Positions 5,203 to 7,924 of a DNA stretch of 27,125 bases are shown here, in pieces (within the stretch, counting starts at the first letter, position 1; every line of letters starts with the position of its first letter). Position numbers and translations under genes: made by a program. A model generated the notes under the pieces. The model was not told where the DNA came from and ran no database searches. It saw only the letters and a program-made list of their open reading frames with translations. This DNA comes from Acidimicrobiia bacterium (GTDB taxonomy: Bacteria > Actinomycetota > Acidimicrobiia > Spongiisociales > UBA5794): positions 1 to 27,125 of the forward strand of contig JAWOGV010000209.1 in the NCBI GenBank assembly GCA_046496605.1, read 5' to 3'.

Positions 5203-6261
5203 ATGGACGACATCCGCCTCACCGCGTACTCGCACGGCGCGGGTTGAGCGTGCAAGCTCGGACCTGACGAGCTGACGCAGGTTCTGCGTCCCTTGCACGA
5301 CCATCCAGCCACGCGCCACCCGGACCTGCTCGTGGGTTTCGCCGGGTCCGACGACGCCGGGGTCATTCGCCTCGACTCCGAGCGGGCCCTCGTCCAGACG
5401 GTGGACTTCTTCACGCCGATCGTGGACGACCCGTACGACTGGGGACGGATCGCTGCCGCGAATGCCCTCTCGGACGTCTATGCGATGGGAGCGGACCCGT
5501 TGACTGCGCTGCAACTCGTGGGATGGCCGAGGGACGACCTCCCGATGGACCTGCTCTCGTCCGTCATCCGCGGCGGTGCCGATGTGATGGCCGCTGCCGG
5601 ATGTGTCATCGTCGGGGGCCACTCGATCGACGACAGGGAACCGAAGTACGGGTTCGCCGTGACCGGGGTGGCGCCACCGGGCGACATCACCACGAACAGC
5701 TCGGCGAGCGCCGGCCAATCGCTGTATCTCACGAAGCCGATCGGAACCGGAATCCTCTCCACCGCGCTCAAGAACGGGCGCCTCGATCCCTCCTCGGTCA
5801 CCGAGCTCGTTGCCGTCATGACGACCCTCAATGCCGCACCCGCCCGTGCCGTCCGACGGATCGGCGCACGAGCAGTCACGGATGTGACCGGATTCGGGCT
5901 CCTCGGACACCTCGCGGAGATGGTCAGGGCCTCGGGGACGAGCGCGGTCGTGGAGGTGGCGACGGTGCCATTCCTCGAGGGCGCCCGTTTCCTCGCCGAG
6001 GAGGGCATGATTCCTGGGGGGACCAGGAGAAACCTCGATTCCGTCTCCGCGATGCTCGATCCGGGAGGTTCCGACGAGGTCGACCGCATCCTCCTCGCTG
6101 ACGCCCAGACGTCCGGGGGCCTTCTCATCGCCGTCGACGCGGCGATGAACAGCGCCTTCGAGCAGGCCATCGAGGACGAGGGAGCATCCGCATGGCGCAT
6201 CGGTTCCATGGTGGTCAGGACCTTCGCCCACGGTCCCTCCGGCCAGATCATGCTCGCCTGA
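5203..6261 (+). CDS. selD: Selenophosphate synthetase (selenide, water dikinase), selenocysteine-containing, 352 aa with Sec at codon 15
   Basis: ATG 5203 gives MDDIRLTAYSHGAG-UGA-ACKLGP, in frame with ORF 5293..6261. This matches the SelD N-terminal RLT.YSHGAGCxCK motif with TGA (5245-5247) at the catalytic Cys/Sec position. Downstream motifs are DDAGV, QTVDFFTPIVDDP, NALSDVYAMG, LYLTKPIGTG, TDVTGFGLLGHL and DAQTSGGLL. Confidence 0.96.
5248..5278 (+). promoter_or_regulatory. Putative bacterial SECIS hairpin directly 3' of the selD UGA
   Basis: GCGT(5248-51) pairs with ACGC(5275-78) as a lower stem. AGCTCG(5255-60) pairs with CGAGCT(5268-73) as a perfect upper stem. The loop GACCTGA starts with G. 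Confidence 0.65.
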
Positions 6262-6462
6262 CCCACGCTGTCGCAGCTACCTCTGGCCACCTGTTCCCAA
6301 CCCGTCGAGGGGTCCGGGAATTGTCCTGCATGGTCCGGTTCGAAGCGGTAACGTTCGCCTGTTGGCCGGTTGCGGACACGTCTGCCGGACCCTCTCGTCC
6401 CCCCTGGAGGTTCCGGCGTGGCGACGGTGGGTCCCCACCCCGGTGGGGATCCACCGGTCGCC
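6262..6462 (+). ncRNA. Candidate structured RNA (unassigned) between selD and mgtE
   Basis: Rod 6306-6397 capped by a GTAA (GNRA) loop, an alternative hairpin 6384-6417 with a CCCCCC loop, and a 19-bp hairpin 6420-6462. G-U pairs favour the + strand. No known family recognised. Confidence 0.4.
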
Positions 6463-6508
6463 CGAGGTCAGGTCCGAGCATCGACCGAGGCGATAGGCTG
6501 GCGACGAA

Positions 6509-7924
6509 ATGAGGATCCGCATCCCACGCCCGCGCCAGTTCGGCTCGATGCTCAGGGATCTCGCACGTCGCGACCCCGAGGAGGCCGAGGCGTACCTCGA
6601 CACCCATCAGGATGCGTGGGAGGATCTCGCCGAGCGAAACCCCCACGACGCCGCCGACATCCTCGAGGCCATCGACGAGGAGGGCGCCGCTGACCTCCTT
6701 CGTGACCTCGATCTGGCTGACGCAGGTGACGTCCTCGACGAGATGCGCCCTGAGGCGGCCGCAGACGTCCTCCAGGAGATGCAGCCAGAGCGGGCGGCTG
6801 AGCTGGTCTCCCAGATGGAGCCCGATCAGGCAGCCGATGTGATCGGCGCGCTCGACGCGGAGGACCGGACGGCAGTGCTGCTGCACCTCGATCGCGCTAC
6901 GGCTGCCGAGGTCGAACGCCTCCTCATGTTCGCCGCCGACACCGCGGGCGGCATGATGACGACCGACATCGCCGCGCTGCCCGTCGGCCTGTCGGCCGGC
7001 GAAGCGATCGAGGCCCTCCGACGGCTCCACGACGAGCTCGGTTCGAACCTGCTGTACGTGTACGTCGTCGACGACGACGGACGGCTCCTCGGTGTCGTTT
7101 CGTTCCGCGATCTCGTGTTCGCGAGGCCCGGTTCCGCCCTCGATGAGGTCATGGAGCCTCACGTGGTCAAGGTGTCGACCGATACCGACCGCGAGCAGGT
7201 CGCCGAGCTCGTCCAGCGATATCGCCTGATCGCCATCCCGGTCGTCGACGGCGACGAGCGTTTGGTCGGCATGGTGAAGGTGGCCGAGGCCCTCGAGGCG
7301 ATCCAGGCCGAGGCAGGTGAGGACATCGCAGTGATGGTCGGCGCAGGTGTCGAGGAGACGGTATTCACGCCCGTGAGCCAGTCGGTGAGGCGCCGGATCC
7401 CATGGATCGCGTTCAACCTCTTCGTCGGCATCCTGATTGCAGCGGTGATCTCACAATTCGAGGCGACCCTGACGACCTACGCGGTCCTGGCCGCATACAT
7501 GCCTCTCGTCGCCCTCCTTTCGGGCAACTCGGGTGCCCAGTCACTCGCCGTCATCATTCGGTCGATGGCGGTCGGGGACATTCCGCGAGGGCGCGCATGG
7601 CGCGCGATCAGGCGGGAGGTCGCGGTGGGCCTCATCGATGGGCTCATCATCGCGGCGATCGCAGCGTCCACCGCTGCGTTGACGTTGCACCTGTTCCAGG
7701 ATTCAGGGGGCGAGGCCGTGGGGGCTGTCGAGCTCGCAGTGATCATCTTCGTTGCGGTGTGGATCGCGTTCATGGTCGCGGGCCTCGTCGGAGCCGGAAT
7801 ACCCGTCGCTCTGCGAAAGGTCGGTCAGGATCCCGCGGTCGCATCGAACATCTTCCTCACGATGACCACCGACATGGTCGGTTTCGGAGGTTTCCTGGCC
7901 ATCTCGACCCTGCTCCTGAGCTGA
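6509..7924 (+). CDS. mgtE: Magnesium transporter MgtE
   Basis: Acidic N-terminal superhelical repeats, a CBS pair (TAGGMMTTD; YVYVVDDDGRLLGVVSFRDL; AIPVVDGDERLVG), and a TM domain with SGNSGAQS and MTTDMVG (Mg-binding Asp). TAGGCT -10 at 6494-6499. Confidence 0.96.
   Translation: MRIRIPRPRQFGSMLRDLARRDPEEAEAYLDTHQDAWEDLAERNPHDAADILEAIDEEGAADLLRDLDLADAGDVLDEMRPEAAADVLQEMQPERAAELVSQMEPDQAADVIGALDAEDRTAVLLHLDRATAAEVERLLMFAADTAGGMMTTDIAALPVGLSAGEAIEALRRLHDELGSNLLYVYVVDDDGRLLGVVSFRDLVFARPGSALDEVMEPHVVKVSTDTDREQVAELVQRYRLIAIPVVDGDERLVGMVKVAEALEAIQAEAGEDIAVMVGAGVEETVFTPVSQSVRRRIPWIAFNLFVGILIAAVISQFEATLTTYAVLAAYMPLVALLSGNSGAQSLAVIIRSMAVGDIPRGRAWRAIRREVAVGLIDGLIIAAIAASTAALTLHLFQDSGGEAVGAVELAVIIFVAVWIAFMVAGLVGAGIPVALRKVGQDPAVASNIFLTMTTDMVGFGGFLAISTLLLS

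What the first reader, a model, noticed from the sequence alone, without database searches (positions are those of the whole stretch)
6262..6462. Unassigned ~200-nt structured RNA with mutually exclusive folds and a six-C loop between selD and mgtE
Fold 1 is a long rod: CGAG-GGGTCCGG(6306-17)/CCGGACCC-t-CTCG(6385-97), then TGTCC-t-GCA/TGC-GGACA, capped by CGAA-g-CG-GTAA-CG-TTCG (GNRA loop). Fold 2 uses the same 3' strand for GCCGGA-c-CCTCT[CGTCCCCCCT]GGAGG-t-TCCGGC (6384-6417). Its loop resembles the C-rich loops of actinobacterial 6C RNA, and a 19-bp hairpin with a CCCG loop (6420-62) follows directly. The 5' end (6262-90) can also pair with 6418-31 and open that hairpin, as an antiterminator would. 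With those ends paired the whole resembles a 6S-like rod with a central bubble. It carries no M-box motifs although it sits upstream of mgtE. Candidates are a new Mg2+/translation-sensing leader, a 6C-like sRNA or a 6S-like RNA (all inference).
Basis: partly seen in the sequence, partly recalled or inferred. Interest (0 to 1): 0.65.

Follow-up and report, generated by a model that had tools for sequence, protein, structure and literature searches.

The report
6C-like small RNA upstream of mgtE
The hairpin with six cytosines in its loop is the conserved core of a small RNA found in most genera of one family of uncultured Acidimicrobiia; it resembles the actinobacterial 6C RNA and nearly always sits just before the magnesium-channel gene mgtE, for reasons not yet known.

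Summary
Partly confirmed. The long "rod" (fold 1), the antiterminator idea and the 6S-like reading are not supported. Six to nine of the rod's 26 pairs break without compensation in three congeners that are 86-89% identical.

H1 is strongly conserved. It occurs in 88 of 133 family genomes and 27 of 30 genera. Ten of its 12 stem pairs show compensatory changes, and 14 nt of loop and inner stem are invariant.

In most genera the unit reads: -35/-10 promoter, a variable 5' hairpin, then 1-3 hairpins with C-rich loops, the last followed by a U tract. Canonical 6C RNA has the same layout. Rfam 6C scores stay below its threshold of 47 bits: 20 bits here and 32-43 bits in relatives.

About 85 of 95 loci lie directly upstream of mgtE. 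That gene has its own TAnnnT box 6-10 nt before the start codon and no Shine-Dalgarno, so it is probably leaderless. Extra copies are followed by convergent genes, and some lineages keep the mgtE promoter without the RNA.

The best reading is a stand-alone, 6C-like, trans-acting sRNA. A cis role on mgtE is not excluded: one metatranscriptome contig spans 6373-6553.

The parts
6349..6354 (+). Inferred -10 box (TAACGT) of the small RNA's own promoter, P1. The inferred transcription start is near 6361.
   Evidence: A TAnnnT box lies 36-54 nt upstream of the loop motif in 55 of 56 homologous loci. GGTAMCGTT is conserved in the four closest genomes. No -35 is recognisable in this clade, and the E. 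coli-type consensus scan finds nothing. The box is inferred, not mapped.
6384..6417 (+). H1, the conserved C-rich-loop hairpin. It has 11 pairs and one C.U mismatch. A U.G pair (6395/6406) closes the 10-nt loop CGUCCCCCCU (6396-6405); the six C are at 6399-6404.
   Evidence: Sequence read. Covariation. CM R1 scores 50.6 bits, E 8.8e-9, and this is the only strong hit in the genome. The motif is found in 88 of 133 family genomes. The invariant U.G closing pair and many G.U pairs indicate RNA on the + strand.
6420..6462 (+). H2, a 19-bp hairpin with one bulged G and a CCCG loop. It is specific to this clade, sits where relatives have a terminator hairpin, and has no U tract after it.
   Evidence: It is kept with 17-18 of 19 pairs in three congeners. 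Congener G001 has a C5-loop hairpin followed by UUUGCGUUU at this position. The terminator scan finds nothing here.
6489..6501 (+). Conserved box GGCGATAGGCTGG containing TAGGCT (6494-6499), the inferred -10 of the promoter (P2) of a leaderless mgtE. It ends 9 nt before the ATG.
   Evidence: 46 of 48 distinct mgtE starts have TAnnnT 6-10 nt upstream, against a background of 0.8%. SD-like words occur in 2 of 48. The box is retained where the RNA is absent.
6509..7924 (+). mgtE, a Mg2+ channel with MgtE_N, CBS and MgtE domains. It is the gene the RNA is syntenic with.
   Evidence: Pfam hits. The N-terminus is conserved from this ATG in relatives.
6262..6348 (+). It is conserved only within the closest four genomes and has no supported structure.
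   Evidence: It does not match in congener G001 or in other genera, where only query positions 124-154 (the H1 region) match.

Best explanation
Positions about 6361-6465 encode a small non-coding RNA of a family that is widespread in one family of uncultured Acidimicrobiia, with members in at least one neighbouring family.

Shown: the functional core is hairpin H1. Its stem co-varies freely, while its 10-nt loop and closing pairs (CUCGUCCCCCCUGG) are invariant.

Shown in most genera: the gene is a self-contained unit. It has a -35/-10 promoter, a short 5' hairpin of variable sequence, and one to three hairpins with C-rich loops. The last of these is followed by a U tract and serves as the intrinsic terminator. 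Canonical actinobacterial 6C RNA has the same layout.

Inferred by analogy with 6C (Mai et al. 2019, PMC6486639): the exposed run of six C pairs with single-stranded G-rich segments in other mRNAs, typically ribosome-binding sites. This would repress their translation without a chaperone.

Inferred: the RNA gene sits immediately upstream of the separate promoter of a leaderless mgtE. The reason for this conserved neighbourhood is unknown.

In this window's clade the unit has drifted. There is no clear 5' hairpin and no -35, and a long second hairpin without a U tract replaces the terminator. Some transcription may therefore run on into mgtE.
For: Conservation and structure:
- Covariation in H1 is strong.
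- The motif is present in 88 of 133 family genomes and 27 of 30 genera. Variant loops occur in two further genera, and the element is also found in a neighbouring family.
- A TAnnnT box is correctly spaced in 55 of 56 loci, and many genera have TTGnnn at the -35 position.
- The 5' hairpin takes 49 distinct sequences. Its mean folding z-score is -1.84.
- U tracts follow the last hairpin in many loci, for example U9 in L056.

Independence from mgtE:
- Paralogous copies in one genus keep the -10 box, the 5' hairpin and the invariant loop. Two of them are followed by convergent CHAT and DUF4389 genes and one by a histidine-kinase gene 450 nt downstream.
- In G021 the RNA and mgtE lie in different contexts. 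G002 and genus g36 have mgtE with its TAnnnT box but no RNA.
- mgtE is probably leaderless: 46 of 48 starts have TAnnnT and only 2 of 48 have an SD-like word.

Likeness to 6C:
- Canonical 6C loci show the same layout.
- RF01066 scores 20.1 bits here, 32.4 bits for a two-hairpin relative and 43.1 bits for a three-C6-loop RNA in another Acidimicrobiia family.
- R1's best hit in most canonical 6C loci falls on 6C hairpin 2.

Strand: G.U pairs support the + strand.
Against: - No target has been identified, and no transcript ends are mapped.
- Tight synteny with mgtE (about 85 of 95 loci) is unusual for a purely trans-acting sRNA and suggests a functional link.
- The only RNA evidence is a single 182-nt contig at depth 3.3. 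It runs from 6373 across H1, H2 and the P2 box into codon 15 of mgtE rather than ending after H2.
- In this clade there is no U tract, no -35 and no clear 5' hairpin.
- Every Rfam 6C score is below the gathering threshold, and the reciprocal hits are marginal at E 0.03-0.4.
- Only one loop here carries six C.
Confidence: 0.6

Rival explanations
1. The element is a cis-acting leader or attenuator of mgtE. Transcription from P1 either stops at the C-loop hairpin or reads through into mgtE. Mg2+, or a factor that recognises the invariant C-rich loop, would set the ratio. Alternatively, read-through from P1 interferes with the leaderless promoter P2.
For: - About 89% of loci lie directly upstream of mgtE on the same strand, whatever gene lies further upstream.
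- An RNA-library contig spans 6373-6553 with nothing on selD or the rest of mgtE.
- H2 has no U tract in this clade.
- M-box was found in only 1 of 151 sampled genomes of the class, so another mode of mgtE control is needed.
Against: - mgtE has its own TAnnnT box 6-10 nt before the start codon and no SD. A read-through mRNA would therefore lack both a 5'-terminal AUG and an SD.
- The spacer between the hairpin and mgtE varies from 60 to 340 nt and is unconserved apart from the -10 box.
- No alternative (antiterminator) pairing is conserved.
- Intact paralogous copies face convergent genes.
- mgtE keeps P2 where the RNA is lost or has moved.
- The RNA evidence is a single low-depth contig.
Confidence: 0.25
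2. The element is only an intrinsic terminator or insulator hairpin that ends selD or other upstream transcription before the mgtE promoter. It would have no function as an RNA product.
For: In many loci the hairpin is GC-rich and followed by a U tract. It always precedes a promoter.
Against: - A terminator does not need an invariant 10-nt loop across 27 genera.
- It does not need its own promoter 36-54 nt upstream or a 5' hairpin.
- The upstream gene differs between genera, and in G017 and G021 nothing co-directional has to be terminated.
Confidence: 0.07
3. The element is a 6S-like rod, or a riboswitch with two mutually exclusive folds, spanning 6262-6462.
For: The pairings can be drawn in this one sequence.
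Against: - Six to nine of the 26 rod pairs are broken without compensation in congeners that are 86-89% identical.
- The 5' half of the spacer does not match outside the four closest genomes.
- The rod covers the inferred -10 box.
- No 6S, M-box or other Rfam match appeared at E up to 10.
Confidence: 0.03

Closest known systems
6C RNA (Rfam RF01066; B11 in Mycobacterium, cgb_03605 in Corynebacterium)
   Same: - Both occur in the phylum Actinomycetota.
- Both are small genes with their own promoter, a 5' hairpin of variable sequence and hairpins whose loops carry a run of six C. The last hairpin doubles as the terminator.
- The loop context is alike: CG-N-CCCCCC.
- Model hits run in both directions but stay below threshold.
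- In 6C the C-rich loops are the conserved parts and bind G-rich RBS regions, while L1 is variable (PMC6486639).
   Different: - Scores are 20-43 bits against a gathering score of 47.
- The number of C-loop hairpins varies from 1 to 3. Most genera have one, and this window has one C6 loop plus a hairpin that is not C-rich.
- The loop consensus differs (UCGUCCCCCCU).
- Synteny with mgtE is conserved here, whereas no mgtE lies within 1.5 kb of the seven 6C loci sampled from the phylum (six at or above the gathering score, one at 44.2 bits).
CcsR1 (RF02791) and other sRNAs with C-rich seeds, such as RsaE/RoxS
   Same: Tandem hairpins with C-rich loops. Relatives of this RNA score 20-26 bits against CcsR1. 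That these RNAs pair with G-rich sites through their loops is from my own knowledge, not tested here.
   Different: The phyla differ, the scores are far below the CcsR1 gathering score of 65, and the loop motif differs (CCUCCUCCC). This is analogy, not membership.
M-box (ykoK leader, RF00380), the usual riboswitch of mgtE
   Same: It occupies the same genomic position, upstream of mgtE.
   Different: There is no sequence or structure match. M-box was found in 1 of 151 sampled Acidimicrobiia genomes. The element here is a 34-nt hairpin with no aptamer-sized fold, and it is separated from mgtE by the gene's own promoter.

Membership tests
6C RNA (RF01066) | Score at or above Rfam's gathering threshold of 47 bits | tested here: not met
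   20.1 bits in the window. The best relative at an orthologous locus scores 32.4 bits. An RNA in another Acidimicrobiia family scores 43.1 bits. The same model gives 44-92 bits on seven loci sampled from the phylum.
6C RNA (RF01066) | Two stem-loops, each with at least six C in the loop, within about 80 nt (definition as quoted in PMC5014011) | tested here: not met
   In the window, H1 has six C but H2 has a CCCG tetraloop. Most genera have a single C-loop hairpin. At the orthologous locus, genera g12 and g6 do have two or three C-rich loops, so the feature holds in some members of the family but not here.
6C RNA (RF01066) | Stand-alone gene with its own promoter, a variable 5' hairpin (L1) and a terminal hairpin acting as terminator | tested here: inconclusive
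   Met by sequence inference in most genera and the layout matches canonical loci. In this window's clade the 5' hairpin, the -35 and the U tract are missing. No transcript ends are mapped.
6C RNA (RF01066) | C-rich loops pair with G-rich mRNA sites (PMC6486639) | not testable with these tools
   The complement CAGGGGGGACG occurs 12 times in the genome. One of the 12 is the reverse-strand reading of H1 itself, and several of the others lie in REP-like repeats at contig ends. No target could be assigned.
M-box riboswitch (RF00380) | Match to the covariance model (three-helix aptamer of about 170 nt) | tested here: not met
   No match at the gathering score or at E up to 10. The own genome gave no hit.
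6S RNA | Long rod of about 180 nt with a central bubble, conserved by covariation | tested here: not met
   No Rfam 6S match. The rod pairs are not conserved.

The most novel reading that the evidence does not exclude
The C-loop RNA may be a previously undescribed regulatory partner of mgtE in a class that largely lacks M-box. It could be a dual-function unit whose termination or read-through, or whose product, controls a leaderless Mg2+-channel gene. One route would be transcriptional interference with the adjacent leaderless promoter. Another would be sensing of Mg2+ or of a loop-binding factor.
Probability: 0.15. Interest if true: 0.75.

Novelty: new variant of a known kind. Interest (0 to 1): 0.45.

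Why it matters
It would extend the 6C type of sRNA with a C-rich loop into the uncultured Acidimicrobiia. The form found there is divergent enough for Rfam to miss it: a different loop consensus and 1-3 loop modules. I found no paper describing it in the searched library.

The covariance model built here (R1) and the alignment of 56 sequences could seed a new Rfam family or widen RF01066.

The near-constant pairing with a leaderless mgtE is unexplained. In a class where M-box is almost never found, it offers a concrete place to look for how Mg2+ uptake is controlled.

It also gives a clean comparative example of a leaderless gene whose promoter box is conserved across a whole family.

Tried and rejected
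- Rfam at gathering score and in E-value mode found only sub-threshold 6C.
- ARAGORN found no tRNA or tRNA-Sec beside selD.
- The repeat or MITE idea fails because the element is single-copy in its genome.
- The E. coli-type promoter and terminator scan found nothing. It is uninformative for actinobacterial promoters, so P1 and P2 rest on comparative spacing.
- The RF01066 search over relatives and the class, through the whole-genome tool, gave almost nothing. Its control search did not reach the cut-off even in Corynebacterium glutamicum, so its negatives are weak.
- R1 on a phylum sample gave only 27-30-bit hits outside the family. These were not 6C by cmscan for the two loci I checked, L121 and L123.
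- A DNA operator reading of H1 is rejected. The invariant U.G closing pair and many G.U pairs would be mismatches on the other strand, and the 10-nt loop is asymmetric.
- I looked by eye for complementarity between the C-rich loop and the mgtE 5' coding region or the P2 box and found none.
- The selD link is incidental. The literature mention of 6C with the Sec machinery (PMC13449736) is a speculation about selA mRNA, and selD is the upstream neighbour only in some genera.
- Target prediction was not attempted beyond a pattern count, because no gene caller was available.

Full report
**Setting.** The window comes from an uncultured Acidimicrobiia genome assembled from metagenomes; the titles of closely related records say so. 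The finding lies in a 247-nt spacer (6262-6508). On one side is selD, with AIRS and AIRS_C domains, at 5293-6261. On the other is mgtE, with MgtE_N, CBS and MgtE domains, at 6509-7924.

**Checking the observation.**
- No Rfam family reaches its gathering score anywhere in the window.
- With permissive thresholds the best match is 6C (RF01066) at 6384-6458. It scores 20.1 bits against a gathering score of 47, E 2.4.
- The spacer folds only moderately better than dinucleotide shuffles, and equally so on both strands: z -2.57 and -2.40. Thermodynamics alone therefore says little.
- The element is single-copy in its genome. It holds no tRNA.

**Comparative evidence within the genus.**
- Three congeners carry the whole spacer at 86-89% identity. 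A fourth congener and a member of another genus match only at H1.
H1 keeps 11 of 11 pairs and H2 keeps 17-18 of 19.
- The rod also overlaps a conserved GGTAMCGTT. Family-wide comparison identifies this as the RNA's own -10 box.
- The rod, the mutually exclusive folds and the 5'-end antiterminator are therefore not supported.

**H1 across the family.**
- A pattern search, followed by a covariance model built from 56 hairpins (A3, R1), finds H1 in 88 of 133 genomes of the family and in 27 of 30 genera. There is usually one locus per genome.
- Two genera that the model missed carry variant loops at the same locus: CUCUCCCCCCGUGG and CCCCCCGCCCCCCU.
- A neighbouring family also has the element upstream of mgtE.
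- On the ungapped alignment, 94.1% of cells pair and 10 of 12 stem pairs show changes on both sides. The covariation score is 0.555 against 0.197 for shuffles (0 of 500 reach it). Slid registers give 34-59% paired.
- CUCG(U)CCCCCCUGG is invariant. That stretch covers the two innermost pairs and the 10-nt loop.
- The invariant U.G closing pair and the many G.U pairs place the RNA on the mgtE strand.

**Anatomy of the unit.** In most genera the locus reads as follows.
- A -35-like TTGnnn sits inside a palindrome, CGACTTGnnGTCG.
- A TAnnnT box follows 16-17 nt later. It is present at the right distance in 55 of 56 loci.
- About 7-10 nt further on there is a short 5' hairpin. It takes 49 different sequences, and its mean folding z-score is -1.84.
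- Then come one to three hairpins with C-rich loops.
- The last hairpin is often followed by a U tract, for example U9 in L056 and UGCUUCUUUUU in L013.

This window's clade departs from that plan. No convincing 5' hairpin is present (z -0.2 to -1.0) and no -35. The second hairpin, H2, is a long stem with a CCCG loop and no U tract. Congener G001 still has the standard 5' hairpin and a C5-loop terminator.

**mgtE has its own promoter.**
- In 46 of 48 distinct mgtE loci a TAnnnT hexamer ends 6-10 nt before the start codon. It is usually TAGGCT, and here it lies at 6494-6499. The background rate is 0.8%.
- SD-like words occur upstream of only 2 of 48 starts.
- By established knowledge of actinobacterial leaderless genes this marks a leaderless mRNA. 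That is an inference; no transcription start was mapped.
- The box persists where the RNA is missing (congener G002 and genus g36) and where the RNA lies elsewhere (G021).

**Link to mgtE.** I compared the coordinates from the RNA and MgtE searches by hand. About 85 of 95 RNA loci lie directly upstream of mgtE on the same strand, even though the gene further upstream varies.

The exceptions are informative. One genus has extra copies that keep the -10 box, the 5' hairpin and the invariant loop. Two of them are followed by convergent CHAT-domain and DUF4389 genes, and one by a histidine-kinase gene 450 nt downstream. Such copies cannot be leaders of mgtE, which argues for a stand-alone RNA product.

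**Expression.** Most public runs that hold this sequence are DNA runs or of unrecorded type. One sediment metatranscriptome holds a single 182-nt contig, at depth 3.3, covering 6373-6553. It has nothing on selD or on the rest of mgtE.
- Its 5' end is close to the inferred start.
- It crosses H2 and the P2 box into mgtE, which hints at read-through in this clade.
- It is one low-depth contig and its ends are not transcript ends.

**Comparison with the known.** Canonical 6C loci were retrieved from a phylum sample; seven loci score 44-92 bits.
- They show the same plan: a -10 box, a variable 5' hairpin, two hairpins with C6 loops, and the second of these followed by a U tract.
- This agrees with the literature. 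L1 is variable, the C-rich L2 and L3 are conserved, and they bind G-rich RBS regions without a chaperone (PMC6486639). The family is defined by at least six C in each of two loops (PMC5014011).
- R1's best hit in most of these loci falls on 6C hairpin 2, but at only 12-16 bits, E 0.03-0.4.
- In the other direction, RF01066 gives 20.1 bits here, 32.4 bits for a two-hairpin relative and 43.1 bits for an RNA with three C6 loops in another Acidimicrobiia family. All are below 47.
- No mgtE lies within 1.5 kb of these 6C loci.
- M-box was found in 1 of 151 sampled genomes of the class.
- I found no paper on this RNA in the library.

**Verdict.**
- The C6-loop hairpin is real, conserved and under RNA-level selection.
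- It is best read as the core of a 6C-like, probably trans-acting small RNA gene whose seed is the C-rich loop. My confidence is about 0.6.
- Formal membership of RF01066 is not met. Homology with 6C is plausible but unproven.
- The conserved neighbourhood with a leaderless mgtE is unexplained. A cis role remains the main rival, at about 0.25.
- An earlier, unchecked note from this scan (e1-5104215) describes a similar hairpin array with a CCCCCC loop upstream of mgtE in another genome. This is consistent with the recurrence shown here.

Noticed in passing
L038, L041, L047, L048, L052 and other loci, about 12-14 nt upstream of the RNA's -10 box; not present in the window: A palindrome, CCGACT-N4-GTCGG (CGACTTGnnGTCG), overlaps the -35 of the small RNA's promoter in many genera; 18 of 56 loci match a strict pattern. 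It could be an operator for an unknown regulator of the RNA. It is absent from this window's clade.
   Followed up: partly
Own genome contigs C135:1-300 (L146), C51:7570-7930 (L144) and C233:10700-10873 (L148); also L044 and L045 in other genomes: There are clusters of REP-like palindromic repeats, such as CGTCCCCCTTGAAAGGGGGACG and GTCCTCCCTTCAGGGGGGACGGGCGAACG. They often lie at contig ends. In many copies the G-rich arm matches the exact complement of the C-rich loop (CAGGGGGGACG). That word occurs 12 times in the genome, one of them being H1 itself. Whether this is coincidence or a target class is unknown.
   Followed up: partly
L105 (G413:C76:541-615, minus strand): Another Acidimicrobiia family has an RNA with a 5' hairpin and three hairpins whose loops each hold CCCCCC. 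It scores 43.1 bits against Rfam 6C, just under the threshold, and is not next to mgtE within the 540 nt available.
   Followed up: partly
L125-L127, L131 (genus g10) and L130 (genus g15): The same locus, between selD and mgtE in g10, carries variant C-rich loops: CUCUCCCCCCGUGG in g10 and CCCCCCGCCCCCCU in g15. Model R1 missed them, so the family is broader than the count of 88 of 133 suggests.
   Followed up: partly
Class-wide search: The M-box riboswitch was found in only 1 of 151 sampled Acidimicrobiia genomes, although mgtE is nearly universal in the family (126 of 133 genomes).
   Followed up: no
window 6663-6939: One run of unrecorded type (X7) holds a second, lower-depth 659-nt contig that matches mgtE only at 6639-6663 and 6939-6961, with 95 other letters in between. 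It probably comes from a different strain or organism and is not a feature of this genome.
   Followed up: no
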